A stretch of 20,000 bases of DNA from an uncultured virus (IMG/VR IMGVR_UViG_3300025325_000016) (IMGVR_UViG_3300025325_000016), one strand, 5' to 3'. Positions 2-16,681 are shown, counted from the first letter of the stretch. A program made the numbers and translations. The notes: a model not told the origin generated them from the letters alone.

Positions 2-3000
2 GCCCAACAAGACGAATATCTGAGAATGCAGCAGGCTAACGAACCGCCTGACCAGATGGGTAAGGGTTTAGGCGGAATGATGCGCCGGATGTTCGGCGGC
101 TTCGGCATGATGTACATGCGCTCGATTACTAACTTTGCCACCCAGGGCCTGGACATCGGGATGCAGGAGCGCTTGGGACAGGAGGGCGCTTTCTTCCCTG
201 CAGCCGGTCAACTGGCCGGGGTTGGCATTATGCCACGCAACCAGACCATCGTCGAGGCGAACCGCCGTGCGCTAATGGGCGGGAACGTGGGTATCTCCGC
301 CCTGACCAACTACCTGCAGACAACTCCGGGAATATCCGATGTTTACACCGCTGCCACTGGCGGAATGGGTGCATTTGCTTTTGCTTCCTGGGCCGGTGGG
401 ATGATGCCCGGAGGCGCTCAATCGGCGCTCTCGAAAGCTGCTCCAGGAATCGGTATGGCGATCGGGGCAGCCTCCCTTCTAGGCCGTGCCGTTCAGCAAT
501 CACAGGATGTAGAAGGATTGGGCTTCCGGCTGGCTCAGAGAACCGGTGCATGGAACGAGAAGCTCGACCTTACTTCCGGGTGGGCTGCGCTGATGGCAGG
601 GACTGAAAAGGTACAGGCCGTCCAGCAGCAGTACGCAAATATCCAGGGAGCTATCCAAGGTGGTCTCAGACCGTCTGAGGCTTTCATGGCAGCAGGCGGC
701 ATTCAGGGCTTTGGCGCAGCAGGGCCGGGAACACGTCTTCCTCAGCAGGGCGCAGCACTTGCCACGTCTTATATGCAGACGATGAAGCAGATCCAGGCAG
801 ATAATCCGAACCTGACCCCTGAAGCAATCGCCCAGGCATTCCAGTTCGTCCAGATGAACGACATGCCACTTAACAAGGTGGCAGAGGTAGCCGGAAGAAT
901 ACAGTCGACCGGCTGGTCTCCTTCCGGGATAGCTACTACCCTCAGTGCAGTCGGGGTAGGTCTAGGCAGGCAGTACGGCGGAGCTCAGGAGATGCTCTAT
1001 GAGCAGGCTCCAACGGCGCTCCAGGCTCTCTATACCCAGGCTGGCGCACAGGCGCTCTCGACTTTGGGCCCAGGCGTTGGGAGCGTTCTCGGGCAAGCGG
1101 TGGGCGTCGAGGGAGCAGCAGCTTATCTTGGACAGCTAGGTCAGATGGAACCGATGAGGCAGCAAGCTGCCCTATTTGATATCTCTCAGTTTGCTCGCCA
1201 GGCCGGTCTTGGGGTGAACGTCAAACCGCCCGAGATCCAGCTCAACCAGCCAGAGCTCACGGCAGAGGAGCAGTATTTCGAAAGATTGAGGCAGGCAAGA
1301 GTAGCTGGCTCGGCGAATGCTGCCGAGCAGGTAGGGGATATCCTAAACCGATTCTTCGCGATGCCTCAAGAGCAAGTCCAGGAGCGGCAGCGCGCTTTAG
1401 AGGGCAGGCAGGAAGGTGATATCCAGCAGGAGTTCCAGCGCCTGCAGTCGGCTATCGGTATCAACCAGGTCTATGCCCGCATGGGACAGCCCTGGGGTGC
1501 AAATATCACTCGCCTTGAAGCTCTAAATCCTCAACAACTGGCTATTGAGGGACAGAGGGCCACGACCCAGGAGCAGCTATATACCCAATTCCAGACCTAC
1601 ATGACACCACTGCAGGCCGGGGTTGCCATCACGCCGTTCTCCACTCTTACGGATAACCGTGAGGCTCAGCGCAGAATGGAGCAGGCGCTTACCGGTGAGA
1701 AGATAGCCGACCTTGGTAAAGAGAGATGGGGGCTTACTTTCCAGAAGAGAGACCTGCAAGCTCAGCAGTTTACGGATATGTCTGCTCGTGGTCAGCTTGG
1801 ATACTTCCAGCAGCAGGTATATTCCGGCATTGCTCAGATGGAACCTTATGCCCTGACCCAGGGTGTCGCTTACGGCATGCAGATGCCAGGTGGCGGAGAG
1901 ATCCCCTCCTGGATGTCCACCAGGGACATTTGGGGGCCGCAGGGCGGGCCGATGCAGGGCATGCCCATAAACCTGCCGCAGTTCACAATCTCGGGCGCCT
2001 CCAACCCGAACTTCCAGTACCTTCAGAATATGCTGCCGCAGGGCACCTTCGCCGGAGGGGCGGGACAGGCTTTTGCTCAGGGCTTCTCGCTCAACGGTCT
2101 CCCGGCAATGGCCGGTACGATGGGCATGGGCCTGTATATGCAGAACCTGCAGAATAAGGCGGCGATAGCCAGCGCCGGGATTGCCAGCCAGGGCAATCAA
2201 CTGCAGATGGAGTACCTGCCGAAGATTTGGGGTCTGCAAGACCAGATCCGTGATATAGGGATTGAGCAGACCCGATGGGGCTTTGGTCGCCAGCTTGAGG
2301 GTCTGCAGATGCAGCAAGGCCAGTTCTTCCAAAACATGGGCCTGCAGCAGCAGCAGATGCAGATGCAGCGAGCGTGGACACGCGAGGATTGGGGAGTTCA
2401 GGATCGCACCCGCAACATGCAGTGGGGCTGGAGAGTAGAGGACTTCCAGGAGCAGGCCAGGTTTATGACCGGGCGTGACCGCCGCCTTGCCGAACGGCAG
2501 ATGGAACGTGAAACCATCATGCACGACATCGAAGGCGGTCAGATTGACAAGCAGCGCAAGCGACAGGAGGAGATGTGGGCGCTTGAGGACGAACGCTTCA
2601 AGATGCAGAAGAAACAATTCATGGAAAATCAGAAGTTTCAAGAGGAGGGCATCAAGAAACAGCGGGAGTTCTTCGAGGCACGCACCAAGCTGGAGATAGA
2701 GCTGACCGACCTGCAGCGTGAGCTTCAAATGAAACAACTGGAGCTTCAAAAGCAGTCGGTTGCAATCCAGGCTCAGATGGCCGCAGAGTCTAAGAAGGTC
2801 AACGATATCCAGGCTGCTATCTCGATCCTGATGCTGGCTCAGCAGACCGGTTGGGAGGCAATCCAGAAGAACGGGGCCGAGTTCGCCGAAGCATTCGGTC
2901 AGAATATCTTAGACTGGATCGATAAACTCGGTGGAGCTGGCGGCACTGGTGGCGGCGGAGGAGGCGGTGGCGGCGGTGGTGGAGGCGGAGATCCCAACAA

Positions 3001-3331
3001 GCCGCATATCTTTATCGATGATGGCACCGGCAGATGCACCCGCTGTGGAAGAAGTGCAAGCGCCAAGATCCACACTGGCTTTGCCGAGGGCGGCAACTAC
3101 TGGCCCGGGATGGGCGACGTCAAGATCAACGAGCGTGTCCCGGAGTTCTTCAAGTCCAGAGAGAGCGGGGAGATCATCCCGCTCGGCAAGCTCGACCCCT
3201 GGCAGCAAGCCGTACTGCCTGCTCTAGACAAGGGCGAACAGAAGATGATTACCCTGGTGGTGAACGTTGGCGACGAGCGACTGATTAAGCGGATTATCAG
3301 GTTTGTGGATAAGGATATAGATGTCCTATGA
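2..3331 (+). CDS. Tail tape measure protein, C-terminal part (5'-truncated by the window)
   Basis: The frame is open from base 2 (GCC CAA CAA GAC GAA TAT CTG AGA ATG), so the ATG at 26 is probably internal. The >1100-aa protein is A/G/Q/M-rich, with a coiled-coil stretch and the C-terminal FAEGG...INERVPEFF...GEIIP motif typical of tape measure proteins. It is followed by Dit- and Tal-like genes with ATGA overlaps. Confidence 0.85.
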   Translation, partial: AQQDEYLRMQQANEPPDQMGKGLGGMMRRMFGGFGMMYMRSITNFATQGLDIGMQERLGQEGAFFPAAGQLAGVGIMPRNQTIVEANRRALMGGNVGISALTNYLQTTPGISDVYTAATGGMGAFAFASWAGGMMPGGAQSALSKAAPGIGMAIGAASLLGRAVQQSQDVEGLGFRLAQRTGAWNEKLDLTSGWAALMAGTEKVQAVQQQYANIQGAIQGGLRPSEAFMAAGGIQGFGAAGPGTRLPQQGAALATSYMQTMKQIQADNPNLTPEAIAQAFQFVQMNDMPLNKVAEVAGRIQSTGWSPSGIATTLSAVGVGLGRQYGGAQEMLYEQAPTALQALYTQAGAQALSTLGPGVGSVLGQAVGVEGAAAYLGQLGQMEPMRQQAALFDISQFARQAGLGVNVKPPEIQLNQPELTAEEQYFERLRQARVAGSANAAEQVGDILNRFFAMPQEQVQERQRALEGRQEGDIQQEFQRLQSAIGINQVYARMGQPWGANITRLEALNPQQLAIEGQRATTQEQLYTQFQTYMTPLQAGVAITPFSTLTDNREAQRRMEQALTGEKIADLGKERWGLTFQKRDLQAQQFTDMSARGQLGYFQQQVYSGIAQMEPYALTQGVAYGMQMPGGGEIPSWMSTRDIWGPQGGPMQGMPINLPQFTISGASNPNFQYLQNMLPQGTFAGGAGQAFAQGFSLNGLPAMAGTMGMGLYMQNLQNKAAIASAGIASQGNQLQMEYLPKIWGLQDQIRDIGIEQTRWGFGRQLEGLQMQQGQFFQNMGLQQQQMQMQRAWTREDWGVQDRTRNMQWGWRVEDFQEQARFMTGRDRRLAERQMERETIMHDIEGGQIDKQRKRQEEMWALEDERFKMQKKQFMENQKFQEEGIKKQREFFEARTKLEIELTDLQRELQMKQLELQKQSVAIQAQMAAESKKVNDIQAAISILMLAQQTGWEAIQKNGAEFAEAFGQNILDWIDKLGGAGGTGGGGGGGGGGGGGGDPNKPHIFIDDGTGRCTRCGRSASAKIHTGFAEGGNYWPGMGDVKINERVPEFFKSRESGEIIPLGKLDPWQQAVLPALDKGEQKMITLVVNVGDERLIKRIIRFVDKDIDVL
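664..680. repeat. Dispersed palindrome copy 1: TCTCAGAC-C-GTCTGAGG
   Basis: Read directly. The minus strand gives GCCTCAGACGGTCTGAG, 17 nt identical to copy 4. Lies inside the TMP gene (encodes LRPSE). Confidence 0.85.
2931..2989 (+). repeat. GGN low-complexity tract encoding a poly-Gly linker in the TMP
   Basis: GGAGGTGGGGGGGGGGGGG in the translation, encoded by mixed GGC/GGT/GGA codons. Confidence 0.85.
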
Positions 3332-3762
3332 CCACCAATAAGTATATTACCCTGCAAGACTCGACGGGTTCGGGTGCCCGGTTCGGCGTGGTACAGGGAT
3401 ACTTCAAACGAACCAAGAAGCGCAACCAGGATGTCCGGGACACTTTAGGCGGAGGCGTGGACGTTTCCCAGGGCGGAATCGTCGAGATCCACCAGTACGT
3501 GATCCGCTGCCGGGACGATGAACCTCGTGAGAATTACGGCGACTATGCCGAATTGGAACGGCTGTGGATGCTGAATAATCCCAACGGCACACCCTCGGAC
3601 AAGATCACCTTTATCGACCACTACGGGGAGAGTCATACGGTTATCTTTCTGGACACCTTCGATCCGAATGCCTTGACGACTATTATCGAGGGCGAGGGAG
3701 CCTGGTTCTTCGTCCCGGTCGTGTTTAGATTTCTACCAGTGGAAGAGCCTGGGCCATCATGA
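3328..3762 (+). CDS. Distal tail (Dit)-like minor tail protein, 144 aa
   Basis: Lies between the TMP and the Tal-like gene with ATGA overlaps at both ends. Size and beta-rich pattern (ITFIDHYGESHTVIF) fit a minimal Dit. Confidence 0.6.
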   Translation: MTTNKYITLQDSTGSGARFGVVQGYFKRTKKRNQDVRDTLGGGVDVSQGGIVEIHQYVIRCRDDEPRENYGDYAELERLWMLNNPNGTPSDKITFIDHYGESHTVIFLDTFDPNALTTIIEGEGAWFFVPVVFRFLPVEEPGPS

Positions 3763-6700
3763 GAGCTGTGCTGCCCTCTGTCCAGGACGCTATCCTGGAC
3801 AATGATACTTACCGGATGCTGGTCGGGGCTACAGTCTGGCCCTCCCGGATCTTCTTTGACGTTGTTACATCAGACTTCCCGATCGCTGGCGCCGATGCCG
3901 TAGGCATAGACGACGATCCTATGCCTCAGTCCCTGTATTACAGCGCCGCAAACGATCTGGTGGTCACGTTCGTCAATGATGGGGGCACCCTCAAGAGGGC
4001 AACCCAGGGCAACAGTAGTCTGACCTCCACCGGAATTTCTATCACTGGAAACCCCAGTATATATGAAGGAACCCTCTTCTATATTTCCGGGGGAGCGGTC
4101 TACAAACGGACGATAACGGACGGCAGCTATGCCTTGAGCGGTGCTACACTCGTCATCACTCCTTCGCTCGATCCTCTGGCAGTGCATGCGGTATCTGCCA
4201 CAGAGTGTGTGGTGGTGTGCGATGGAGATGGCGGCTTGAAGATCGTAGCCTCAGACTCGTCTGAGGGAGAGGGGCGCTTTATGTTCCCTCGCCTGTTTGA
4301 TTATACAGACGACGACCATCCCCTGCGCACCCTGACAAGCATCGCCCTATTCTCGGGTGCGTTCAAGCTCAACAACGACATCTTTTTCTATATCTCCAAC
4401 AATGCCACCGGAGCAATCGAGGCGATCAAGCTGGATAACTATACGGGCATTTGGGGAGATATCTGGACTTCGCTGCCCTCAGACATCGATGCAGGACTGG
4501 CGGACTTGAGAATAGTGCATGCCTATTCCCGTAATGGCACAGGCTATCTGGTAACGCAATTCCAGAGGACGGAGACTCTGCAGACCGCATTGACCTACAG
4601 CCTGATCCTTACGACTGCAGATGGCAAGTTCTTCTCGGTCGACCCATTTACTGCAGTCAGCAACCTGGGCTATCGTTTTCACGCAGTGGTCGGTGGGACT
4701 AAGCTGTTCCTCGGCAACTGCAACCGGATCTGCTACAGCGACGTCACGTATTACTTTGACGGGGCTGAGGGCCTGGGCCTAAGCTTGGAGATCCCCCATA
4801 CCGACATCATCGAATTTAATGACAGCTCTATGACCAGTGGAACCATGCAGATAGCTGCCGGTGATGACTATTATGCTACTCACCCCTACGTCATCGAGGG
4901 AAGTCTTATCACCGTCGACGTGGGCTATGAGACTACGGACGGCCAGGAATACGTAACCTACAACCGGTATATCATCGACAGGATCAGCGTCAACCGCAGG
5001 GATGGAAGCCGCTCTTTACAGATGTCCATAGTCCACGAAGGGATGTGGAAACTAAACCAGCTCTCCAGCCCGTTCTACATCGAGATATTCGGCAGGTCTG
5101 CAGTCGGCGATCAGCTCGAAGAAGAGAGCGGAAACGTATATACGGCTCCAGATACCCACCAGCTTATCAATAGAATGGCAGTCGATTTTTGGGGGTGCGA
5201 GCCTTATTCTAAAGCCTCCGAGAGTATTGTGGGTGTCGACATTATCAGCTCCGGTGGAGTGAACTACTACGAGGCAGCCGGAGCCCACAAGCTCGGCTTC
5301 AGATCGAAGGAACTAAAGGACTTCTACAATCTCACGGATAACCCGACCATCATCTCCGGGAGCATAGAGGTAAACATATTCGGGTGGAGCAGAGGATCTC
5401 CAGCCGACACTGTTACCCTCATAATTATCACCGAGGACGACGACAAGAAAGAATATCTGGACTTGACGAGCGCCGGTTTGTTTCCGGGGGGCGGAGAGAA
5501 TCCGATAGAAGTAACGGCGACCGGCCTGGACACGGAACACAGGCTGAAATATATAGGGCTGGTTTTTGAGTCCTCCGGAGATACTGCTTTTTGTCCCGCC
5601 AGAGTGGAGATCATGAGCGGTATCCATGCCTGGAGATATTACGACGATCCCAATACGCCCTGGTCTCAGCAAAAGCCTAGAGGTATCAAGATGCCTGGAT
5701 ATTACAGGCCATACCTCATGTTCGGGCAGAAGCCCTATAATGCTCAGAACTTTATTGCCACCGGAAGTTTCAAGACCTCTCTTACTTTTCCAGTAGTAGA
5801 CAACCCTAGCTACTATCGGGTTGGTGGTGGCCTGGTCGGGCTGGCGGATAACGGGATGAACTTCGTCCTTGGCTGCTATAACGAACGGATGACCAGGTTC
5901 GAGATCGTCAAGGTGAGGGATGGAGTAGATACTCTGCTCGCTAGTTGGACTCCAGGTTTTTCAGTTGACGAAGAGTACGAAGTCATGTTCATGCACAAGG
6001 ATGGCAGGTTCTCTGTATGGGGGATGAATGTGGATACCTGGGAAGAGGTCGCTTCTTACGAGTGGACGGATGACGATAGCTGGATGTTCACTTCTAAGAC
6101 CTCCAGCAAGAAGTGCGGCATTTATGGACAGGCAGACACCCCGGCTTTCTATATCATTGCCTATGACTCCGGCGAGAACGATGACGGAAAGATATCCGAT
6201 GGAGTTGGAGCACTTCCTCCCTGGTATCAGTTTGACGATTTTCCTGCTAGCGGAGAGGTAATCATCAACGGCTCGATTTATACATACACAGACCTCGCAT
6301 CTGTGACAGTCCGAGGCCCTTATCAGTACCGCCAGAATAACCCGGATTATAGCGAGGGAGCCGGACTAGAGAACAGAGACTACGATGACACCAAGATCGG
6401 TGGAGATCTGGCCGGAAGCTTGATCGCCATCGATGACGGGGCCTGTTACCTGGTATCCGATACCAATTGGAATCCATACGGGGATGAGAACCGGACACGC
6501 TGGATATCTCTCAACGAGATGATCGGCAATATCTATCATACCTGTGCTCAAAAGACCTACACTACCGGAGGACTTCATGGGATGGAACAGATCAGCGGGG
6601 AGAGGACATCCCATCCTACCGGAAGTATCTGTATGCAGAGACTCCGAGGAGAGCTCATGTGTCTCTCTTACTTTGGAGTTTCCGGGAGCAGCGATCTCAC

Positions 6701-7736
6701 TGTTGCGAACCTGATCCACCAGGTGGCTTCTCTTGCCGGAGCACGAGTGGTCTTCTCGGGAGATACCGTTTCGGCTGCGATGGGCATCAGCGGAGAGACA
6801 CTGATCGGCTCCTTTAAGAATGTCGAAAGCTTCGACATCGAGTTTGAGGCGGGAGCAGCCTCCTCGATCGTCCTAAGAACGAACGTGAACCGCCCTGGAA
6901 CCGACACGAAGGTGGAGGTTCAAATCGACGACCTGGGAGGCGGGGATTTTGAGATCGCCCTAGTCTCCACCCCCTCAGATACGATCTTGGGAAAGATAGC
7001 CGTAACCGTCGCCGACACCGATCATCGCTACCGGATTGTGTTCCACGAGAACTTTGTCTCCATCCATATCGACGATCGTTGGATTTACACCTTCTATACG
7101 GAAAGCCTGAGATATCCGAGCACCTGTAGCATCTGGCTGGATGGCTCCTTTACGGCAACCAACCTGAAACTGGTGGAGCTATGCGACTGGAGAGAGGCCA
7201 TATATATCGACCTCGAAACCAACGGCATGAGCGTAGTCCAGGACATCATCCAGGAAAGGCCGGTCGAGATCTACCCTCGCTCGGATGGCTCGATATCTTT
7301 CTGGTATGAGATAGTCAGGGATATTGTCACTCCCACAAGAGAACCTGGGCAGCACAGCGAGAGTCGGGGTAGGCCCTCGGGCGCTTCGTCGGATGCGATT
7401 ATCTACGGCTCGAAAGACGCCAAGACCCACCAGTACAGCCCGTTCCTGAAGGAGCATGGGTTCAGCACCAAAGTCTATAGGATGCCTAACCTGGATAGCG
7501 GTGCAGGCCGAGCGGCCAAGATCCTGCTCGAACGGCTATTCGAGGAGAGATCCACACACGATTTGACTATTCGCCCGGACGTGAGGCTGGAACCGGGAGA
7601 TAAGTTCGAGGTCGATTATGTGGCTACCGGCACCCAGCTTGTCCAGCAAATGACCCTGATCGTTACCGACGTGAGGTTGCATATCGACGATCGCAGCTCA
7701 TCGATGGGCATTACCGGCAGGGAGGACTACACATGA
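3759..7736 (+). CDS. Large Tal/baseplate-hub-like tail tip protein with inserted beta-sandwich domains, 1325 aa
   Basis: Follows the TMP and Dit-like genes. Hub-like motifs include GSLITVDVGY...YNRYIIDRISV and C-terminal RPDVRLEPGDKFEVDY...LIVTDVRLHI. Acidic and beta-rich. Confidence 0.7.
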   Translation: MRAVLPSVQDAILDNDTYRMLVGATVWPSRIFFDVVTSDFPIAGADAVGIDDDPMPQSLYYSAANDLVVTFVNDGGTLKRATQGNSSLTSTGISITGNPSIYEGTLFYISGGAVYKRTITDGSYALSGATLVITPSLDPLAVHAVSATECVVVCDGDGGLKIVASDSSEGEGRFMFPRLFDYTDDDHPLRTLTSIALFSGAFKLNNDIFFYISNNATGAIEAIKLDNYTGIWGDIWTSLPSDIDAGLADLRIVHAYSRNGTGYLVTQFQRTETLQTALTYSLILTTADGKFFSVDPFTAVSNLGYRFHAVVGGTKLFLGNCNRICYSDVTYYFDGAEGLGLSLEIPHTDIIEFNDSSMTSGTMQIAAGDDYYATHPYVIEGSLITVDVGYETTDGQEYVTYNRYIIDRISVNRRDGSRSLQMSIVHEGMWKLNQLSSPFYIEIFGRSAVGDQLEEESGNVYTAPDTHQLINRMAVDFWGCEPYSKASESIVGVDIISSGGVNYYEAAGAHKLGFRSKELKDFYNLTDNPTIISGSIEVNIFGWSRGSPADTVTLIIITEDDDKKEYLDLTSAGLFPGGGENPIEVTATGLDTEHRLKYIGLVFESSGDTAFCPARVEIMSGIHAWRYYDDPNTPWSQQKPRGIKMPGYYRPYLMFGQKPYNAQNFIATGSFKTSLTFPVVDNPSYYRVGGGLVGLADNGMNFVLGCYNERMTRFEIVKVRDGVDTLLASWTPGFSVDEEYEVMFMHKDGRFSVWGMNVDTWEEVASYEWTDDDSWMFTSKTSSKKCGIYGQADTPAFYIIAYDSGENDDGKISDGVGALPPWYQFDDFPASGEVIINGSIYTYTDLASVTVRGPYQYRQNNPDYSEGAGLENRDYDDTKIGGDLAGSLIAIDDGACYLVSDTNWNPYGDENRTRWISLNEMIGNIYHTCAQKTYTTGGLHGMEQISGERTSHPTGSICMQRLRGELMCLSYFGVSGSSDLTVANLIHQVASLAGARVVFSGDTVSAAMGISGETLIGSFKNVESFDIEFEAGAASSIVLRTNVNRPGTDTKVEVQIDDLGGGDFEIALVSTPSDTILGKIAVTVADTDHRYRIVFHENFVSIHIDDRWIYTFYTESLRYPSTCSIWLDGSFTATNLKLVELCDWREAIYIDLETNGMSVVQDIIQERPVEIYPRSDGSISFWYEIVRDIVTPTREPGQHSESRGRPSGASSDAIIYGSKDAKTHQYSPFLKEHGFSTKVYRMPNLDSGAGRAAKILLERLFEERSTHDLTIRPDVRLEPGDKFEVDYVATGTQLVQQMTLIVTDVRLHIDDRSSSMGITGREDYT
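4249..4266. repeat. Dispersed palindrome copy 2: CCTCAGAC-TC-GTCTGAGG
   Basis: Read directly. Inside the Tal-like gene (encodes ASDSSEG). Confidence 0.9.
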
Positions 7737-8362: not shown

Positions 8363-8366
8363 TACG

Positions 8367-10043: not shown

Positions 10044-10064
10044 AGGAGAGATATCACTTATAAT
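10036..10064 (+). promoter_or_regulatory. Sigma70-type promoter TTGTAT-N17-TATAAT
   Basis: -35 TTGTAT at 10036-10041, perfect -10 TATAAT at 10059-10064, 17-bp spacer. It sits at the start of the largest intergenic gap between genes. Confidence 0.6.
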
Positions 10065-10139
10065 ACTCTAAGCACCTTACCACACCTGTACATGAAACCC
10101 ACTTTACAAAGTGGAGTGTAAACTCCAGAGACTTTATCA

Positions 10140-10159
10140 GCCTCAGACACGTCTGAGGC
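10140..10159. repeat. Dispersed palindrome copy 3: GCCTCAGAC-AC-GTCTGAGGC (intergenic)
   Basis: Perfect 9-bp inverted repeat ending 2 nt before the GGAGG SD (10162-10166) of the gene at 10173. Confidence 0.9.
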
Positions 10160-10172
10160 CCGGAGGATTACA

Positions 10173-10631
10173 ATGCCTGGTTGGACGAATGCTCACAAAG
10201 CTGATATTTTCAGACAGGTGTATCAGCGTACTACTCTCCCAACGAATTACCACATTGCTCTGGTCACGTCCGGCGACGTGCCAGACGCCGATACGAACGT
10301 GCTTGGCGACCTGACCGAGATCCCTGCGGGGAACGGCTACACGGCAGGCGGATACGCGCTCACTCCCGGCGATACCGACTTCGATTTCGTCGAAGAGGAT
10401 GATGCTGCCGACCTGGGACGTATCCAGATCAAGGATGTCGAATGGCTGGCAGATGGCGGCCCGATCCCTGCAACGGGTACGGCTGCTTATGCTGTCATGA
10501 CCGATGACAATGTTGTCCTGGCAAGCCGCAAGATCGCGCACTACTGGTCGCTTGGCGGGGAACGCTCTGTCCAGGACGGATCGCCGTTCCGGTTGATCAA
10601 CCTGGAAATCCGTGCCCTAGAACCCACATAA
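10173..10631 (+). CDS. Small phage tail-fibre/structural subunit (Gp80-like), 152 aa
   Basis: GGAGG SD. The pattern IALVTS..P.ADT...DLTEI..GNGYTAGG..L...DVEW.A.GGPI....YAV..DD matches a widespread family of about 130-150-aa fibre subunits. Confidence 0.65.
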   Translation: MPGWTNAHKADIFRQVYQRTTLPTNYHIALVTSGDVPDADTNVLGDLTEIPAGNGYTAGGYALTPGDTDFDFVEEDDAADLGRIQIKDVEWLADGGPIPATGTAAYAVMTDDNVVLASRKIAHYWSLGGERSVQDGSPFRLINLEIRALEPT

Positions 10632-10694
10632 GAGGCGCTATGCGCCACACAGTTGAATACTTGTTTTTGATCTTGCCTTTCAGCGAGGCCGCTT

Positions 10695-11702
10695 ATGGGT
10701 AGAGTATTTACAGACGGTGCTGAGTTTCAAGACCTTTTGTTCTGGAGTATTGTGCAAGGCGGGCCTGTCATAACCACGGTGGGCTCAAATGTCCGATCGG
10801 GTCTGGCGGCGTATAGATACGGTAGCGGCTCTCAGTATTCCGATAAAATTCTTCCTGCTGCTCTATCAGAGTTCTATTTCAAGTTAGGGTATAAAAGAGA
10901 CGGGGTTACATCAGCGGGAACCAGAATACCAGCCTGGTTCGCAACTTCAACGGAATTGGGATCGATCCGGCTGAACACAACTACCCACCTCCTTGAACAC
11001 TATGTGGGTACGACTCTAACAACAACAGGAACAATTGTAATACCACTAAGCGCTCACTGTGTGATCGAGTGCCATGTAAAAATTGGTGATGCTCCGAACG
11101 GAATTGTTGAAACTAAGGTAGACGGAATACCGGATATCAGCTTTGCTGGAGATAGCAAGCCGGGAGCTGATGCCGCTGCCAATATGCTTCGAGTCTACTC
11201 TATGGTGTCGTCTGGTATGAACATTGACGATCTAGCCCTCAATGACACCACTGGAGTTGTGGACAACTCTTGGTGCGGGGATGGTAGAGTCGCTCTGCTC
11301 AAGGGGAATGCAAACGGAGATGTCTCTCAGCTCGTAGGTCAGGACGGAAATAGCGTAGATAATTATCTGAATATCGATGATGTTCCTCATGATGGAGATA
11401 CCACCTACAACCAAGGTATTCTCAGTGGAGAATACGACCTGTATAACCTACAGGCAAGTGGCCTGAGCAATGTCTCTATTCTCCGAGGGTGGATAGAGGC
11501 CAGGGCAAGAAAAACGAAGGCCTCCCCCGAAACCGTCCTGCTTGGCTTGAAAACAGATGGTACTGAATACTGGAACGACAGCCACAATCTAATGACGATG
11601 GTTACTGGTATCAGACGGGATCATACGATCAATCCTAAAACGGGTTCGCCCTGGACTATAGCCGATTTGGATGCCCTTCAGATAGGGTTCAAGGTGGAAT
11701 AA
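10695..11702 (+). CDS. Virion structural protein, two beta-sandwich domains (N-terminal ConA/LamG-like); paralog A, 335 aa
   Basis: IECHVKI...GIVETKVDG...IDDLALNDTTG resembles LamG-type folds. Alignable over its full length with the next gene. Confidence 0.65.
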   Translation: MGRVFTDGAEFQDLLFWSIVQGGPVITTVGSNVRSGLAAYRYGSGSQYSDKILPAALSEFYFKLGYKRDGVTSAGTRIPAWFATSTELGSIRLNTTTHLLEHYVGTTLTTTGTIVIPLSAHCVIECHVKIGDAPNGIVETKVDGIPDISFAGDSKPGADAAANMLRVYSMVSSGMNIDDLALNDTTGVVDNSWCGDGRVALLKGNANGDVSQLVGQDGNSVDNYLNIDDVPHDGDTTYNQGILSGEYDLYNLQASGLSNVSILRGWIEARARKTKASPETVLLGLKTDGTEYWNDSHNLMTMVTGIRRDHTINPKTGSPWTIADLDALQIGFKVE

Positions 11703-11704
11703 TT

Positions 11705-12679
11705 ATGAGACTATTCACAGATGGTGCTGAGTTTCAAGATCTGCTGTTCTGGGATATAACAAACGTAGTTACTAATGTAACAACGACTCCAAGATCGGGT
11801 AATCGTTGTTATAGCCTAGGTGGTAATGCAACTCCAGTCAAAACTATTCCAAGTCTCTCAGAGTTTTATTTCCGCTTTGGATATAGAGTTACAGCTTTTC
11901 ACTATCTTCATAGATTGCCAAGGTGGCTGAAAGGATCAAACGAACTAGGTCATCTGAGAGTCAATGATGTGTCTGGTCTTGTCGAGATTTATTCCGGGGG
12001 CGTGCTAAAAGCGACTGGATCTATTCCAATTAAGCTAGACACTATATATCTGATAGAGCTTCATGTGAACATATCAGACACCGGCATTATAGAAGTCAAA
12101 ATTGAAGGGCATCCGGATACCAGTTTTACGGGAGATACCAAACCCGGATCCGAGACCAACGTAGATGCCTTACAGTTTATAGGGACCGGCTACATACAGC
12201 TTATTGACGATCTCGCCCTCAATGATACTACAGGTGGGGTTGACGATAGCTGGTGTGGGGACGGAAAAATTATTCTTCAAACCCCGAATGGAGCTGGGGA
12301 TAACACGGGTCTGACCCCATCCGCCGGAAGCAACTATGAATGCGTAGACGAGTTTCCCAACGACGGAGATACTACCTATGTGGGAGATACAGTTGTAGAT
12401 GACTACGATCTCTATAACCTTACTCCATGTGGTCTTGTTGATGTTGACATTTTGCGGGTATGGGCTGAGGCTAGAGCCAGGGACGTAAACGCCGCTGGCG
12501 GAGTCTGCAAACTTGGACTAAAGACTGAAGCAACTGAATACTGGAGTGCTGGAGATTTATCTTTGCTGACTTCTTACTCTCCGATACCTGGAACTCGGCA
12601 TACAGTCAATCCTAATACTGCTATCGCCTGGACTACTGCTCAACTAGATGCTCTACAGGCAGGATTCAAGGTCAGATAA
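11705..12679 (+). CDS. Virion structural protein; paralog B of 10695-11702, 324 aa
   Basis: Shares FTDGAEFQDLLFW, LSEFYF, IDDLALNDTTG.VD.SWCGDG, DGDTTY, YDLYNL, W.EARAR, LGLKT..TEYW and LDALQ.GFKV with paralog A. Confidence 0.65.
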   Translation: MRLFTDGAEFQDLLFWDITNVVTNVTTTPRSGNRCYSLGGNATPVKTIPSLSEFYFRFGYRVTAFHYLHRLPRWLKGSNELGHLRVNDVSGLVEIYSGGVLKATGSIPIKLDTIYLIELHVNISDTGIIEVKIEGHPDTSFTGDTKPGSETNVDALQFIGTGYIQLIDDLALNDTTGGVDDSWCGDGKIILQTPNGAGDNTGLTPSAGSNYECVDEFPNDGDTTYVGDTVVDDYDLYNLTPCGLVDVDILRVWAEARARDVNAAGGVCKLGLKTEATEYWSAGDLSLLTSYSPIPGTRHTVNPNTAIAWTTAQLDALQAGFKVR

Positions 12680-13677
12680 TGACACTCTCAATCAATTCTG
12701 AGGCTACTGGTGGCGAGAGCGTTGTTGGTAGTTTTGTAGTAACCAAACCTGCCACTGTCTCAGATGGCGATCTGCTCGTTGTAATTGTAGGTGCTCAGGT
12801 TATCCCAACCATCACTTCTCCCCGTTGGGTTCAATTAGGTGTTGGATCATCTGCAACGGGTAATGACACTTATGTTGGAGTATTTTGTCGCTATGTAGGA
12901 GAAGCAGATGACGAACCGGCATCCTATGTTTTCTCTGTAACTGTCAATGGACAAATGGGATGGTGGATTGGATCGCTCACTCCTACTACCCCACATGCCA
13001 ATTTAGATCAGGCCATCTCCTTTGCTAACAGACAGAATGACACTTCTCCAAATACGAGCGCTCTAACAACGGTTGCGGCTAACACCCTAGCCTTTGCAGC
13101 CTGGGCAGTCAATAACGATAATGCCACCGATCCTCCCGCTGGAGGATGGGACACTAGAGCGGATAACGTTGGCGGAAACGGTGTTCTGACTGTTAGCTCA
13201 CAAGCCTTTCCTTCTGCGGGTACTTCAACTGGAACCCCGGAAATAACGAATGTAGCCGCCAACCAGGAAACCGAAACAGCTATGATCGTGTTTCGGGATG
13301 GGGTCGCTCCCGCCAACCGCGCTACCAATATCGGTGTTCAGGTGGAGTATGTTGCAGATGCAGAACCTACTCGCCTGACCAACATCGGCGCACAGGTGGA
13401 GTATGTTACCAGCGACGATCCCACCCGGCTAACTAATATTGGCGTTCAGGTCGAATATGTTCCAGAGCAGGCTTTCCTTGTAACTCAAGAAGTCTTTGGT
13501 ATTGAGTATGCCGATGACCAGGCTTTCAGGGTTACTGCCATTGGTTTCCAGATTGAGTATATCGAAATCAGAGGTAAGAAACCCAAAGATCCGCCTTCGC
13601 ATGGCCCAAAATTCATATCCGGCAGTGGGCCAGAAACACATATAGCCCATAAGTCCATCCCTCACCTGAGGATATAG
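12679..13677 (+). CDS. Structural/fibre protein: N-terminal beta-sandwich plus five C-terminal 17-18-aa repeats, 332 aa
   Basis: TAATG overlap. The VTKP..V.DGDLLVV motif is common in phage fibre domains. Repeats have the form R.TNIG.QVEYV. Confidence 0.6.
   Translation: MTLSINSEATGGESVVGSFVVTKPATVSDGDLLVVIVGAQVIPTITSPRWVQLGVGSSATGNDTYVGVFCRYVGEADDEPASYVFSVTVNGQMGWWIGSLTPTTPHANLDQAISFANRQNDTSPNTSALTTVAANTLAFAAWAVNNDNATDPPAGGWDTRADNVGGNGVLTVSSQAFPSAGTSTGTPEITNVAANQETETAMIVFRDGVAPANRATNIGVQVEYVADAEPTRLTNIGAQVEYVTSDDPTRLTNIGVQVEYVPEQAFLVTQEVFGIEYADDQAFRVTAIGFQIEYIEIRGKKPKDPPSHGPKFISGSGPETHIAHKSIPHLRI
13318..13563 (+). repeat. Five in-frame tandem repeats (spacing 54, 54, 51, 51 nt), consensus R-x-T-x-I-G-x-Q-[VI]-E-Y
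   Basis: Units start at 13318, 13372, 13426, 13477 and 13528: RATNIGVQVEYV, RLTNIGAQVEYV, RLTNIGVQVEYV, LVTQEVFGIEYA, RVTAIGFQIEYI. Confidence 0.85.
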
Positions 13678-13686
13678 GAGTTCATC

Positions 13687-14136: not shown

Positions 14137-14139
14137 TCC

Positions 14140-15360
14140 GTGCCTGATGTAAAGTATATCGGCAGAAGGCAGATCTATATCCGGGGGCGTATCCCCCTGG
14201 GCCTGGACATCAGGCCCGAGCCTGCGGATATCTTCACGTCCGTAGACGGATCAGCCTATTTCCCGCTGGAGATCACACCTGATCCTGCTGATATCCTTGT
14301 CGATGTAGGTACAGTCGGCATTGCGCTGGAGATTACACCGGAGCCGGCCAGTGCCATATTTAGCACGGTTTATACCATCGAGGTTACTCCTGCTCCAGCC
14401 GATGCCGTGGTCGACGGTGTAGACCCGACCCTGACGGCACCACCTCTGGAGATCACGCCAGAGCCCGCAACTTGTATAACCGATGCGACCGACCCAACCG
14501 TATATGCGCCTCTAGAGCTGATCCTGGAGTACGCTGCTGTAGTAATGAGTGCTGCAGATCCGGATGTGCTTACCCCACTGGAGCTGGTCTTGGAGTTTGC
14601 CGGTGCCGTCGCTTCCGCAGTGGACGGCCAGGTCTACGCACCATTAGAGCTGACCCCGGCCTTCGCCGCCGTACTGACAGACAGTGACCTGCAGGTCTAC
14701 ACTCCATTTGTGTACACACCAGTCTTTGCCGCTGCCAGGATGGACGTCGACAGCCCATATATCTTTACTCCGCTGGAGCTGTACCCACAACCCGCAGATA
14801 TCTTTACCAATATAGACGGCAGTTCTTATATCCCGTTTTTCTACACACCCGACGAGGCAGATATACTCGCTGAGATCCATAATCCCATCTTCTGGAATCC
14901 GACGATTGTCTATCCGGCTGCAGTAGATGCGGTGATGTCCGGCAGCGACCCGACCGTGTATACCCCGCTTGAACTCAGGGACTTGTTTACCTCAATTGAG
15001 GTAGATGCCCTAGACCCGTTTGTGTATACGCCCCTGGAACTCGTGGGCTTGCTTGCTCAAGTAGATGTCTCCGGGCTGGTCGGGCTGGTCTATACTCCGC
15101 TGGAACTGCGTGAGCTCGACGAGGCGGACGCTCTGGCGGGTGCAGCCGATCCGGTCGTATGGGTGCCCTATTTCGCCAGACCTCAGCCTGCCGATATAGA
15201 CACCGGGATCGTCGACCCGAGCGTGCTGCTTGGCTTCATGCTCGTCCGGTTGGTGCGTGCGACATTCTTGTCCAAGCAGCTTTCTATACCGACTTATGGG
15301 AAGGACACGTTTATCAGCACGAAGCTGGGCAAGAAAGTGGATGTGGAGACGAAGCTATGA
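14140..15360 (+). CDS. Acidic repeat protein (about 16 repeats of ~21-22 aa, PLE[LI]xPxxA...DPxVYT); putative fibre scaffold, 406 aa
   Basis: GTG start with GAGG SD. The repeats are directly visible in the translation, and basic N- and C-termini flank an acidic repeat core. Confidence 0.7.
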   Translation: MPDVKYIGRRQIYIRGRIPLGLDIRPEPADIFTSVDGSAYFPLEITPDPADILVDVGTVGIALEITPEPASAIFSTVYTIEVTPAPADAVVDGVDPTLTAPPLEITPEPATCITDATDPTVYAPLELILEYAAVVMSAADPDVLTPLELVLEFAGAVASAVDGQVYAPLELTPAFAAVLTDSDLQVYTPFVYTPVFAAARMDVDSPYIFTPLELYPQPADIFTNIDGSSYIPFFYTPDEADILAEIHNPIFWNPTIVYPAAVDAVMSGSDPTVYTPLELRDLFTSIEVDALDPFVYTPLELVGLLAQVDVSGLVGLVYTPLELRELDEADALAGAADPVVWVPYFARPQPADIDTGIVDPSVLLGFMLVRLVRATFLSKQLSIPTYGKDTFISTKLGKKVDVETKL

Positions 15361-15695
15361 CAACCAGACCGGATATGCACGTCGATGATTATGGCACCGA
15401 CTTCGAGCTGGCTGTTCTGAGCCGCTCCAATAATAAGCCGCTTCCCCTGGCAGGCACGCTGATCAGGCTATTTCTGTTTCAGCCGCCTACAGTAGAAGCT
15501 TTCATGCGGGAGGCCGAGCTGCTCACCCCGCCCACCGGCGCAGATGGCAAGCTGGTCTACACCTTTGAAGACGGGGATATCACGGAGGCCGGGACGTGGT
15601 ACGTGCAGGCACTTATTCAAGACGATGATGGCCGCTGGCATACGGACATCGAGAGCTTCGAGGTCGGCGCCAATATCGAGGTGGAGGGATCGTAG
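15357..15695 (+). CDS. BppU N-terminal-like (upper baseplate/adaptor) domain protein, 112 aa
   Basis: Start re-called to the ATG at 15357 (ATGA overlap, GGAG SD). Motif DGKLVYTF..GDI..AG.W.VQ......GRWHT....FEV. Confidence 0.65.
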   Translation: MTTRPDMHVDDYGTDFELAVLSRSNNKPLPLAGTLIRLFLFQPPTVEAFMREAELLTPPTGADGKLVYTFEDGDITEAGTWYVQALIQDDDGRWHTDIESFEVGANIEVEGS

Positions 15696-15697
15696 AC

Positions 15698-16681
15698 ATG
15701 CTGGATACCCTGGCAATTGATATCTCGAAATGGCAGCAGCGCATCGATGTCCATAGCCTTAGGCGGGAGGGCGTCGGGCTTATTATTGGCAAGCTATCCC
15801 AGGGCATGAATCCAGATCCCAAGTGGGATGCCCATGCGAATACCACTGTTCAGGCAGGACTTCCTCTTGCGGGCTATCACTGGAGCGATCCTATCGTCCC
15901 TGCTCTAGAGCAGGCCGAGTTTTGCGCCGAGATCGCCAAGGATTACCCGGTCACGTTTATCGGTCTTGACCTGGAGCAGTGGTGGAAGTCCTGGAGCGAG
16001 TACAGGGTACTAAAACAGTATGCCCGCAGGTTCCCGGCCTCTCACCTGGGGCAGCATGCCCAATGGATGTATAACACCCTGGGAAAGAAGTCCTCCAGGC
16101 TGATCCTGCCTTACTCGAACCAGAACTACCAGAAGACTTATTGCCCTAATCTATTCACCTGGTGGATCAGGTCTTCGGTACACTGGATTGCCCAATGGCC
16201 GAATGCCTACCAGCCATCGGACAATAGAAAAGGCGTCTATATTACCTGGTTCGATCTCAAGACCAAAGTGGTGCCCTACAAGCGCTCTCCCTATCTATTC
16301 TCTGGTGTAACCAAGGCGGTCTGCTGGCAGTGGACGGGCGATCGATGGATGCTGCCCTATGTCTATAAGCTCCTGACCGGCAGTGCGCTCAGCACCCTGG
16401 ACATCAATATTGTAGATATGCTGTGGCTGAATAGCTTGGGTAAGCCGCCGCCTCCACCACCGCCCCCGCCTCCAGAGCCGCCGCCCTTATATACCGCCAG
16501 GGTCATCGCCTCAGACGGTCTGAGGGTTAGGTCTAAGCCCGGACTGACTTCGGACTGCATTATCCTGAGAAAAGAGAGCTACGGGACGCTGGTGGATGTC
16601 TGGCAGGTAGTGGGCGATTGGTCTAAGGTCAGCAAAGACTTATCCGAATGGATGTTCTCGGAGTACCTACAGAAGATATAA
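15698..16681 (+). CDS. Endolysin: GH25 muramidase, poly-Pro linker, C-terminal SH3b cell-wall-binding domain
   Basis: IDISKWQ, GYHW, EQA.F, the catalytic LDLE (DxE) motif, WIAQW, WQWTG and LDIN are GH25 hallmarks. Linker KPPPPPPPPPPEPPP; SH3b-type VIASDGLRVRSKPG...DWSKV...WMFSEYL. Confidence 0.92.
   Translation: MLDTLAIDISKWQQRIDVHSLRREGVGLIIGKLSQGMNPDPKWDAHANTTVQAGLPLAGYHWSDPIVPALEQAEFCAEIAKDYPVTFIGLDLEQWWKSWSEYRVLKQYARRFPASHLGQHAQWMYNTLGKKSSRLILPYSNQNYQKTYCPNLFTWWIRSSVHWIAQWPNAYQPSDNRKGVYITWFDLKTKVVPYKRSPYLFSGVTKAVCWQWTGDRWMLPYVYKLLTGSALSTLDINIVDMLWLNSLGKPPPPPPPPPPEPPPLYTARVIASDGLRVRSKPGLTSDCIILRKESYGTLVDVWQVVGDWSKVSKDLSEWMFSEYLQKI
16509..16525. repeat. Dispersed palindrome copy 4: CCTCAGAC-G-GTCTGAGG
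   Basis: Read directly. Inside the SH3b-coding part of the endolysin (encodes ASDGLR). Confidence 0.9.

What the first reader, a model, noticed from the sequence alone, without database searches (positions are those of the whole stretch)
664..16525. Dispersed palindromic element (G)CCTCAGAC-N1-2-GTCTGAGG embedded in unrelated late genes
Seen: four copies, at 664-680 (TMP), 4249-4266 (Tal), 10141-10158 (intergenic, just before an SD) and 16509-16525 (endolysin SH3b), with gaps of about 3.6, 5.9 and 6.4 kb. The arms are invariant except for one terminal base, while the centre varies (C, TC, AC, G). The coding copies give different peptides (LRPSE, ASDSSEG, ASDGLR), and copy 1 is the 17-nt reverse complement of copy 4, so conservation is at the nucleic-acid level. 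A fixed 16-bp motif is expected about 1e-5 times per 20 kb under a uniform model. Inference: this is a genome-wide cis-acting site system. The 1-versus-2-nt spacer is awkward for a rigid dimeric repressor and fits a hairpin or cruciform read as structure. Candidate roles are a transcription roadblock/operator, a hairpin promoter for a phage polymerase, an RNA processing site, or a DNA packaging/organisation or recombination signal. I do not recognise it as a described element.
Basis: partly seen in the sequence, partly recalled or inferred. Interest (0 to 1): 0.82.

Follow-up and report, generated by a model that had tools for sequence, protein, structure and literature searches.

The report
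Clade-specific palindrome sites across phage genomes
The four identical short palindromes are real and are one example of a habit shared by a whole family of uncultured soil and groundwater phages, each branch of which scatters its own version of the palindrome through its genome, probably as docking sites for an unidentified nucleic-acid-binding factor.

Summary
CTCAGAC-N1-2-GTCTGAG occurs four times at the stated places, in 0 of 200 dinucleotide shuffles and 0 of 100 codon shuffles. No imperfect copies exist. Independent assemblies from several runs carry all four copies, so this is no artefact.

The wider finding lies outside the window. The window belongs to an uncultured siphovirus family with tape-measure genes of about 3000 codons and no INPHARED match. 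In 15 of 27 family sequences examined, one palindrome recurs far above shuffles. The arm differs by clade: CTCAGA(C), CTCCAC, CTCCAAC, YTCCAA, TCCTAC, CTCGTA. The centre varies in sequence, and in most clades also in length. Sites lie across whole genomes in all codon phases. About 12 of 34 are non-coding, against 6% non-coding DNA. Some intergenic positions are kept between clades while the arm sequence switches. Sites appear to arise by substitution, not insertion.

The function is unknown. My best guess (0.35) is docking sites for a co-evolving DNA-binding protein, as with Noc or KorB; the one complete relative encodes a ParB/Noc-like protein. A structure-read hairpin (0.3) remains open. 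The closest described case is the 17-bp repeat of Cluster O mycobacteriophages, also of unknown function.

The parts
664..680 (.). Copy 1: TCTCAGAC-C-GTCTGAGG, inside the tape-measure-like gene (2-3331); read as G-L-R-P-S-E-A
   Evidence: bridged by X1 contig record 1 with 0 differences
4249..4266 (.). Copy 2: CCTCAGAC-TC-GTCTGAGG, inside the 1325-aa tail-tip-like gene (3759-7736); read as A-S-D-S-S-E-G, in a variable, indel-rich loop of the protein family
10141..10158 (.). Copy 3: CCTCAGAC-AC-GTCTGAGG (9-bp arms with the flanking G/C), non-coding, 15 nt upstream of the ATG of the 152-aa gene 10173-10631, with GGAGG between. G015 has a copy at the matching place, 14 nt upstream of its 73%-identical homologue, with the same 6-nt arms and a different centre
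16509..16525 (.). Copy 4: CCTCAGAC-G-GTCTGAGG, inside the GH25 endolysin gene (15698-16681), at the junction of the proline linker and the SH3-like domain; read as A-S-D-G-L-R
4477..4484 (+). The only solitary half-site in the window (CCTCAGAC); no partner arm

Best explanation
The four copies are this phage's share of a clade-specific set of short dyad-symmetric recognition sites. Each site has two 6-8-nt arms of the general form (C)TC-N2-3-AC and an unread centre of 0-4 nt. A whole family of uncultured siphoviruses with very large tape-measure genes keeps such sites throughout its genomes.

I think they are most likely docking sites on phage DNA for a sequence-specific, two-armed DNA-binding protein. 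The logic would be that of Noc with its NBS sites, or KorB with its OB operators: many dispersed palindromes, between genes and inside them, from which the protein acts on transcription or DNA organisation.

Shown: the sites are real and far above chance. They are genome-wide and occur in all codon phases. They are enriched in non-coding DNA. The arm differs by clade, and some intergenic positions are kept while the arm sequence switches. Where it could be tested, the sites were made by substitution.

Inferred: that a protein reads them; that it reads duplex DNA rather than a hairpin; and what binding achieves.
For: (1) Arms are invariant and the centre is free in every clade.

(2) Recurrent palindromes were significant (at most 2 of 100 codon shuffles) in 15 of the 27 family sequences tested. 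L182 was borderline at 5 of 100, and 11 showed none. Some of the 27 overlap or are close relatives, for example L188 within G015 and L143/L147.

(3) The arms are variants of one theme: CTCAGA(C), CTCCAC, CTCCAAC, YTCCAA, TCCTAC, CTCGTA. This is what drifting specificity of one kind of reader would give.

(4) Position is kept while the arm switches. Upstream of the glycerophosphotransferase-like gene, L016 has CCTCAGAC-AC-GTCTGAGG 20 nt before the ATG, and G011 has CTCCAC-ATT-GTGGAG 9 nt before the aligned ATG. Downstream of the tail-tube gene, L016, G013 and G014 each have their own motif 24-56 nt after the stop. Window copy 3 matches G015 site 6817. The L016 site ahead of the portal gene matches G015 site 38949; both lie 3-4 nt before a TTGACA.

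(5) Several clades have 0-1-nt centres and AT-rich arms that cannot make stable hairpins (G013, L150/L152, L147, L154).

(6) In G013 the outer arm base is T or C independently in the two arms: 8 mixed, 4 T/A and 1 C/G. There is no preference for pairing and none for the sense strand.

(7) Coding copies use all three phases, 2/5/1 in G015, and two phases plus non-coding in the window.

(8) The only complete genome of the family, G011 (82 kb, 10 sites), encodes a ParB/Noc-family protein. It matches phrog_4715 at E 1.3e-10, and PDB Noc 7ol9 at E 4e-5 and ParB 4umk at E 6e-4 over residues 17-211.

(9) Published parallels exist. Cluster O phages carry 34 copies of TGTTCGG-NNN-CCGAACA, and the authors suggest a dimeric DNA-binding protein (PMC4351075, section 8 read). 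KorB loads at a 13-bp palindromic OB and acts at a distance (PMC11790492, passages read).
Against: Spacer length varies within genomes: window 1-2 nt; G015 2-4 nt; G011 2-3 nt; L154, L147 and L182 0-1 nt. ParB, Noc, KorB and classical repressors use fixed spacing (my own knowledge).

The ParB/Noc-like gene was found in 1 of 5 fetched genomes. tblastn at E<=1 finds no homologue in G012-G015, the window or the other family loci. PHROGs finds none in G012-G014. Those four genomes are 49-74% complete.

G011 and G014 share the arm CTCCAC, yet apart from the structural genes nothing of G011 matched G014 at E 1e-6. This argues against a reader encoded in the early region.

Some copies sit at the tip of longer, non-conserved stems (L016 14 bp, G014 9 bp, window copy 3 9 bp). 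That looks like selection for folding.

Nothing is known of the early region of the window's own phage.
Confidence: 0.35

Rival explanations
1. The sites are read as a stem-loop in single-stranded nucleic acid, either mRNA or ssDNA at replication forks. A factor recognises the stem sequence and the loop is free. The intergenic copies act as 5'-UTR or 3'-end RNA hairpins for stability, attenuation or translational control. Alternatively the copies act as ssDNA signals, for example for priming or restart.
For: Centre length varies by 1-2 nt within most genomes, which is natural for a loop. The window copies fold at -9 to -15 kcal/mol as RNA. Some copies are extended by non-conserved complementary flanks: a 14-bp stem in L016 after the tail-tube gene, 9 bp in G014, and 9 bp in window copy 3. 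G015 keeps a 12-bp hairpin with CCTCAG/CTGAGG arms at the place where L016 has the full motif. Non-coding copies lie 6-25 nt before start codons or just after stop codons. One G011 copy at a convergent gene junction is followed by a T-run. In window copy 1 the stem extends only through G-U pairs on the sense strand.
Against: With 0-1-nt centres only 4-5-bp stems are possible in G013, L150/L152, L147 and L154. The outer pair in G013 shows no pairing or sense-strand preference, 4 versus 4. There is no clear excess of compensatory double changes. Most copies in G015 (8 of 10) and the window (3 of 4) are inside translated genes, where ribosomes would melt an RNA hairpin. None of the four window copies has a T-run, and the terminator scan flags none of them. 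No Rfam family matches. Stems of 6-9 bp are too short for RNase III (my own knowledge).
Confidence: 0.3
2. The palindromes have no function for the phage. They may be tiny selfish or self-propagating sequences. Or they may be short shared linkers that persist because they promote recombination and module exchange among co-infecting relatives.
For: In the window and G011 the copies are all perfect, with no one-mismatch copies. Coding copies are not positionally conserved between genomes that share an arm, which indicates high turnover. The arm CTCCAC is shared by G011 and G014, whose non-structural genes do not match. Between the window and strain L137 the endolysin switches from about 70-80% to about 96% identity some 40 nt upstream of copy 4. 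Recombination between repeats is reported for Cluster O (PMC4351075, section 8 read). Earlier notes of this scan describe 17-20-bp mobile palindromes in CPR bacteria; these are unchecked leads.
Against: The four window copies have no target-site duplication in their flanks. The G013 copy in the transferase-like gene lies in a gap-free aligned block (VPSNLEK against VPEVLLD), and the G015 copy there has only 2 extra residues. At copy 2 the window's protein is shorter than its relatives, not longer. Centres differ between copies, so copies are not simple duplicates. Arms stay identical at positionally conserved intergenic sites whose flanks and centres have diverged, which points to purifying selection. 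G013, G014 and G015 do have excess one-mismatch copies (13, 3 and 3 against about 0.5 expected).
Confidence: 0.15
3. The arms are recognition sequences of a restriction-modification or other defence system. The system could be the host's, or a methyltransferase of the phage. The paired arrangement would serve as a decoy, a trap or a methylation switch.
For: The arms are short asymmetric words that often end in AC. This resembles, from my memory only, sites of MmeI-type enzymes such as TCCRAC. Arm identity changes between clades with different G+C, and so probably different hosts. G011 encodes two methyltransferase-like proteins and an ArdC-N anti-restriction domain.
Against: Defence targets are expected to be avoided in phage genomes, not enriched (my own knowledge). 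Solitary half-sites are not enriched beyond codon effects. No cognate enzyme was identified. G012 has a DNA methyltransferase but no recurrent palindrome.
Confidence: 0.07
4. The copies arise by chance, from an adapter or assembly artefact, or as a by-product of a repeated peptide.
For: In L143/L147 all copies are read in one phase as x-[PS]-[TY]-V-G. In L159 both copies encode PQRGG within the tape-measure gene. Some relatives' counts may therefore be inflated by peptide repeats.
Against: No match occurs in 0 of 200 and 0 of 100 shuffles. Independent runs and assemblies carry the copies. The window copies use two phases plus non-coding DNA and give different peptides. G015 uses all three phases.
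Confidence: 0.01

Closest known systems
17-bp dyad repeat of Cluster O mycobacteriophages (Corndog and relatives): TGTTCGG-NNN-CCGAACA (PMC4351075; abstract, passages and section 8 read)
   Same: The 7-bp arms are invariant and the centre is variable in sequence. Copies are spread through the whole genome, between genes, near 5' ends and inside genes. The motif is absent from other phages. Recombination between copies has been noted. The function is unknown, and the authors suggest a dimeric DNA-binding protein.
   Different: The spacer is fixed at 3 bp there, whereas its length varies here. Density there is about 1 per 2 kb (34 in about 70 kb), against about 1 per 4-8 kb here. One motif serves one tight cluster there, whereas here a divergent family holds at least six arm variants, with positions kept across arm switches. 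There is no sequence or protein similarity: neither the Tal-like protein nor the L016 terminase has any INPHARED hit.
Noc-NBS, ParB-parS and KorB-OB systems (KorB: PMC11790492, passages read; Noc, parS and the number of OB sites on RK2 are from my own knowledge)
   Same: Short palindromes are dispersed over a replicon, including inside genes, and are read by a ParB-family protein that acts beyond the site. G011 encodes a ParB/Noc-family protein. The G013 motif YTCCAA-S-TTGGAR has the same 13-bp, single-centre-base layout as the OB core.
   Different: Those systems use fixed spacing. A ParB-like gene was seen in only 1 of 5 fetched genomes. No binding has been shown, and no ParA partner was looked for.
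Stoperators of Cluster A mycobacteriophages (my own knowledge)
   Same: Many copies of one short repressor site lie across the genome, including within operons. Site sequence co-varies with phage lineage.
   Different: Stoperators are asymmetric 13-mers oriented with transcription. The sites here are symmetric and show no orientation bias.
REP elements with RAYT transposases, and tiny mobile palindromes such as Rickettsia palindromic elements (my own knowledge; the scan's earlier notes are unchecked)
   Same: These are short hairpin-forming repeats with conserved stems and variable loops. They are lineage-specific and sometimes lie in frame inside genes.
   Different: No flanking tetranucleotide tag, no target-site duplication and no insertion signature was seen where tested. 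No HUH or RAYT gene was found in G011. The elements here are also much shorter than RPEs.
Dispersed RNase III-site hairpins of T7-like phages (PMC11707656, passages read, for their dispersal and similarity in a vibriophage)
   Same: Similar hairpin-forming sequences are scattered over a phage genome at gene junctions.
   Different: Those are long, imperfect stems in intergenic RNA (my own knowledge). Here the arms are 6-9 bp, and many copies lie inside coding sequence.

Membership tests
Cluster O-type phage-wide dyad repeat | Invariant inverted arms with a centre free in sequence | tested here: met
   Four of four window copies share CTCAGAC/GTCTGAG; the centres are C, TC, AC and G
Cluster O-type phage-wide dyad repeat | Fixed spacer length (3 bp) | tested here: not met
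   The window has 1 and 2 nt. G015 has 2-4 nt and G011 2-3 nt relative to 6-nt arms
Cluster O-type phage-wide dyad repeat | Copies throughout the genome, both between and inside genes | tested here: met
   The window has 3 coding and 1 non-coding copy. G011 copies run from 9 kb to 81 kb. About 12 of 34 sites are non-coding
ParB/Noc/KorB docking sites | A ParB-family protein encoded by the same replicon | tested here: inconclusive
   Present in complete G011. Not found in partial G012-G015 or in the window. The early region of the window's phage is not available
ParB/Noc/KorB docking sites | Palindrome with fixed half-site spacing | tested here: not met
   Spacer length varies in most clades and is fixed only in G013, G014, L183 and L150/L152
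ParB/Noc/KorB docking sites | Protein binds the site | not testable with these tools
   Needs EMSA or DAP-seq. The single-sequence model of the G011 protein was poor (pLDDT 49)
Intrinsic (Rho-independent) terminator | G+C-rich stem followed by a T-run | tested here: not met
   None of the four copies is among the 15 terminator-like sites of the scan, and no T-run follows them. One G011 copy at 72515 does have a T-run
Tiny mobile palindrome / RPE-like in-frame insertion | The copy is an insertion relative to homologues, with a target-site duplication | tested here: not met
   No direct repeats flank the copies. At copy 2 the window's protein is shorter than its relatives. The G013 copy lies in a gap-free block. 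Copies 1 and 4 could not be tested for lack of informative homologues
REP / RAYT | Associated Y1 HUH transposase and a conserved tag next to the hairpin | tested here: inconclusive
   No such gene is among the Pfam or PHROG hits of G011, and no conserved flank lies beyond G/C. Most proteins have no family hit, and the window's full genome was not seen
Cluster A stoperators | Asymmetric site oriented with transcription | tested here: not met
   The sites are symmetric. G013 variants show 4 versus 4 orientations within plus-strand genes
Uptake signal sequences (DUS/USS) | Hundreds to thousands of copies in the host genome, mostly single | tested here: not met
   The best bacterial genomes hold 7-8 copies per 0.9 Mb. 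The whole genome-contig scan gave 119 loci in 596 Gb
CRISPR-repeat mimic (RNA anti-CRISPR) | Similarity to a CRISPR repeat | tested here: inconclusive
   No Rfam family, including the CRISPR-DR families, matched at E<=5. The host and its repeats are unknown

The most novel reading that the evidence does not exclude
The palindromes are a heritable 'barcode' of each phage clade. A reader, either in the conserved late or virion module or in the host, scans phage DNA for its own arm sequence. That sequence can switch in concert at all sites, as between the close relatives G011 (CTCCAC) and G015/L016 (CTCAGA), whose capsid proteins are 75-80% identical. Such a code could tell own DNA from foreign DNA, for packaging, for protection from the phage's own nuclease, or for exclusion of rivals. 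It could also define groups of phages able to swap modules at the sites. This would be a new kind of phage genome-wide self-recognition system.
Probability: 0.12. Interest if true: 0.85.

Novelty: new variant of a known kind. Interest (0 to 1): 0.6.

Why it matters
Genome-wide dyad repeats have been noted in one phage cluster (Cluster O) and left unexplained. Here the same kind of element appears in an unrelated, uncultured phage family, in at least six arm variants. Some sites stay in place while their sequence switches.

One can look for the protein, or host factor, whose recognition surface co-varies with the arm. The series also allows a test of duplex against hairpin recognition using the spacer variants that nature already provides.

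If it is something else, it may be a new layer of phage genome organisation or self-recognition. Either way, the motif is a practical marker for sorting metagenomic fragments of these phages into clades.

Tried and rejected
- The window's own genome is not held. There is no megablast hit in INPHARED, and no tblastn hit for the Tal-like protein or the L016 terminase.
- The 558-aa protein gave no IMG/VR relative.
- No RNA holder was listed among the sequencing runs. Only contigs, not raw reads, could be laid, so read-end pile-ups (nicks, RNA ends) could not be examined.
- Suppressed variation at the sites could not be tested. One search lists only 40 of 659 variant places. Strains L137 and L138 are too close (97.7% and 99.65%). 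The 80%-identical endolysin of L137 is about 96% identical across the whole SH3 part, so the intact motif there says little.
- The insertion test for copy 1 failed, because that part of the tape-measure protein does not align with L141. L150 and L152 tape-measure proteins are only about 31% identical.
- Host link through the motif. The same palindrome tips terminator-like hairpins in small CPR-type MAGs: G006 has 7-8 copies and G008 has 4. In a sample of 401 genomes of that phylum only G006 stands out, and the control pattern shows that other genomes have unrelated high-copy palindromes. BLAST of the window against these MAGs gave only short matches. I do not treat this as host evidence.
- The solitary CTCAGA excess on the G015 sense strand is mostly in one codon phase (xCT CAG Axx), which is a codon or amino-acid effect.
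- An excess of compensatory double changes was not clear.
- All six 3-nt centres in G011 are T-rich on one strand. This is too few to interpret.
- The model of the G011 ParB/Noc-like protein was poor (pLDDT 49), so no fold search was run.
- Metagenome records behind L145-L161 could not be searched whole.
- Earlier scan notes gave nothing for this genome or for look-alike stretches.


Full report
**The observation**

The pattern CTCAGAC-N0-4-GTCTGAG occurs exactly four times in the window, at 665-679, 4250-4265, 10142-10157 and 16510-16524. None of 200 dinucleotide-preserving shuffles gave a single match. With the outer pair the copies are T/CCTCAGAC-N1-2-GTCTGAGG. Allowing three mismatches adds no further copy. 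Only one solitary half-site exists, at 4477. In 100 codon-order shuffles no 6-nt-arm palindrome reached four copies.

All long ORFs are on the plus strand. They are:
- a 5'-open tape-measure-like gene (2-3331);
- a 1325-aa tail-tip-like gene (3759-7736);
- further tail genes;
- a GH25 endolysin (15698-16681; PF01183, E 1.3e-15) with a weak SH3 match;
- a dCTP-deaminase-like gene.

Copies 1, 2 and 4 lie in coding sequence in two different phases, and copy 3 is non-coding, 15 nt before the ATG at 10173. One small correction: copy 1 is the reverse complement of copy 4 at 16 of 17 bases.

**Not an artefact**

Twenty DNA runs from 18 studies of soil, sediment and groundwater hold the stretch. Contigs from four of them bridge each of the four copies, with no indel at any copy. 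Two JGI contigs of the same species carry copies 2-4: L138 at 99.65% identity and L137 at 97.7%.

**The family**

The phage has no relative in INPHARED by DNA, by the tail-tip-like protein or by the terminase.

Homologues of the 1325-aa protein (99% to 33% identity) led to 35 metagenome loci and 9 IMG/VR loci. I fetched five IMG/VR records whole. G011 is 82,163 bp with terminal repeats and is rated complete. G012-G015 are rated 49-74% complete.

These phages have tape-measure genes of 3000-3500 codons, and methyltransferase and sugar- or glycerophosphate-transferase-like genes inside the tail module. The structural module is shared. Apart from it, only the SSB of G011 matched another of these genomes (G012) at E 1e-6.

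**The motif is clade-specific, but the habit is family-wide**

The window's motif is absent from relatives at 72% identity or below, including the homologous spacer of L140/L141. Many relatives, however, carry their own recurrent palindrome:

| Genome or locus | Palindrome | Copies |
|---|---|---|
| G011 | CTCCAC-N2-3-GTGGAG | 10 |
| G014 | CTCCAC-N3-GTGGAG | 6 |
| L158 | same arm, CTCCAC | 4 |
| L183 | same arm, CTCCAC | 3 |
| G015 | CTCAGA-N2-4-TCTGAG (the window's arm) | 10 |
| G013 | YTCCAA-S-TTGGAR | 4 perfect, 13 with one mismatch (0.55 expected) |
| L154 | CTCCAAC-N0-1-GTTGGAG | 3 |
| L182 | TCCAAC arm | 3 (borderline) |
| L147 | TCCTAC-N0-1-GTAGGA | 4 |
| L150, L152 | CTCGTATACGAG | 3 each |

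Of 27 sequences tested, 15 were significant (at most 2 of 100 codon shuffles), one was borderline and 11 had none. Some of the 27 overlap or are close relatives. The arms look like variants of one theme, (C)TC-N2-3-AC.

A caution applies. In L143/L147 and L159 all copies are read in one phase as similar peptides, so peptide repeats may contribute there. The window, G015, L150/L152, L154 and L158 use mixed phases.

**More copies of the window's own motif**

An IMG/VR contig, L016 (9.4 kb), holds two exact copies. One is identical to window copy 3 over 21 bases. I first took L016 for an unrelated phage, because tblastx against the window found nothing. It is in fact the head module of the same clade:
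- Its terminase, portal, capsid and tube proteins are 55-80% identical to G015 and 31-77% identical to G011.
- The window's 152-aa protein is 73% identical to its G015 homologue.

L016 is therefore the same phage as the window, or a sister of it. Both of its copies are intergenic. One lies between terminase and portal, 4 nt before a TTGACA-17-TATACT promoter-like site. The other lies 24 nt after the tail-tube gene.

**Where the sites lie**

By my own rough ORF calls, about 12 of 34 perfect sites in the window, G011, G013, G014 and G015 are non-coding. About 6% of the DNA is non-coding (binomial P about 5e-7). The rest sit inside genes, often the very long tail genes. G015 has 8 of 10 in coding sequence, in all three phases. 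In G011 the sites run from 9 kb to 81 kb, through leftward early and rightward late genes.

**Positions kept, sequences switched**

1. Window copy 3 and G015 site 6817 both lie 14-15 nt before the ATG of the same gene. They share the same arms, but the centres (CACG against CCCA) and the flanks are unalignable.
2. The L016 site ahead of the portal gene and G015 site 38949 both lie 3-4 nt before a TTGACA.
3. Before the transferase-like gene, L016 has its CTCAGAC motif 20 nt upstream. G011 has its CTCCAC motif 9 nt upstream of the aligned start. G015 has a 12-bp hairpin with CCTCAG arms at the same place.
4. After the tail-tube gene, L016, G013 and G014 each carry their own motif 24-56 nt past the stop. 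In G013 and G014 it follows a separate generic hairpin.

Coding copies, by contrast, are not at matching places in genomes that share an arm.

**Substitution, not insertion**

The flanks show no target duplication. At copy 2 the window's protein is shorter than its relatives, in a variable loop. The G013 copy inside the transferase-like gene lies in a gap-free block, and the G015 copy there comes with only two extra residues. Copy 4 encodes A-S-D-G-L-R at the start of the SH3-like domain.

**What reads them?**

*For recognition on duplex DNA:*
- The arms are symmetric and the centres free.
- Several clades have 0-1-nt centres that allow only 4-5-bp stems.
- The two arms in G013 degenerate independently (8 mixed, 4 T/A, 1 C/G) and show no sense-strand preference.
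- Copies occur in all phases.
- The complete genome G011 encodes a ParB/Noc-family protein (phrog_4715 E 1.3e-10; PDB Noc E 4e-5 and ParB E 6e-4).

*For a hairpin:*
- The centre varies in length within most genomes.
- Several copies are prolonged by non-conserved complementary flanks.
- The non-coding copies sit where RNA hairpins are usual.

*Against a reader encoded in the early region:* G011 and G014 share CTCCAC without any non-structural gene matching between them. No ParB-like gene was found in the four partial genomes.

I put duplex docking sites first (0.35) and a structure-read hairpin second (0.3). Recombination linkers or selfish palindromes follow (0.15), then a defence-related role (0.07).

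**Comparison with what is known**

The nearest description is the 17-bp repeat TGTTCGG-NNN-CCGAACA of Cluster O mycobacteriophages. It has 34 copies, invariant arms, a variable centre and copies both between and inside genes. Its function is unknown, and the authors doubt a transcriptional role (PMC4351075, section 8 read).

The present case differs in three ways: spacer length is variable, density is lower and, above all, it shows a series of arm variants with positional conservation. KorB-OB (PMC11790492, passages read) and Noc-NBS (my own knowledge) are the closest mechanistic models.

The features that define intrinsic terminators, T7-type RNase III sites, stoperators, uptake sequences and in-frame mobile palindromes were each tested and not met. 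For REP/RAYT elements the test was inconclusive (see the membership table).

**Verdict**

The finding is real and more general than reported. It is a new variant of a known but unexplained kind of phage element, and its function is still open.

Noticed in passing
window 16440-16500 and 15698-16681; L137:11495-12677: The endolysin has a run of about 13 prolines between the GH25 and SH3-like parts. Between two strains the GH25 part is about 70-80% identical in DNA and the SH3 part about 96%, so a recombination junction lies at the linker, about 40 nt upstream of copy 4. Many foreign contigs also end on the proline-coding repeat (loose ends at 16443-16486).
   Followed up: partly
window 10695-13677: There are three consecutive genes of 324-335 aa. 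The first two match phrog_2448 and share short DNA stretches with each other. Strains differ here by skips of 118-912 bases in the laid contigs, so this looks like a variable cassette of tail-fibre-like genes.
   Followed up: no
L141:1-9582, G011 44674-53709, G015 19187-29692, G014 34525-44532: Tape-measure genes of 3000-3500 codons occur throughout the family. The window holds only the last 1109 codons of its own, including a run of about 15 glycines.
   Followed up: no
G011 39333-43907 (L190:19333-19899, L191:633-3907): Methyltransferase-like, nucleotide-sugar-transferase-like and glycerophosphotransferase-like genes sit between the tail-tube and tape-measure genes. This hints at chemically modified virion proteins. 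Cluster O phages also carry transferase genes in the structural operon (PMC4351075).
   Followed up: partly
window 19911-19943: A strong terminator-like hairpin (14-bp stem, then a T-run) lies after the small genes at the end of the window. It probably marks the end of the late operon.
   Followed up: no
L028, L031, L045, L048, L081, L082 (G006); L021, L056 (G007); L041, L067 (G008): Small CPR-type MAGs carry the window's palindrome at the tip of longer AAACA...TGTTT terminator-like hairpins, with 7-8 copies in a 0.9-Mb genome. Other genomes of that phylum have unrelated high-copy palindromes; for example, the control pattern occurs 15 times in G051. This may be coincidence rather than a host link.
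   Followed up: partly
L022-L120 (Sulfurovum MAG JANTGA01): About 19 copies of CCTCAGAC-NN-GTCTGAGG form part of a longer multi-palindrome repeat, next to ACTCGAACAAGTTCGAGT, sometimes in tandem 81-88 nt apart. This repeat family is unrelated to the phage.
   Followed up: no
G014 1421-1435 and 33600-33614: The same 26-base stretch, the motif followed by GATACTATGGA, stands at two gene starts in opposite orientation. There the 3' arm (GGAGG) serves as the ribosome-binding site, 6 nt before the ATG.
   Followed up: no
L016 2468-2496: A near-consensus sigma-70-type promoter (TTGACA, 17 nt, TATACT) lies ahead of the portal gene, directly after a motif copy.
   Followed up: no
window 18114-18737: A dCTP-deaminase-like gene (PF22769, E 3.6e-21) follows the lysis genes, inside the late gene block.
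   Followed up: no
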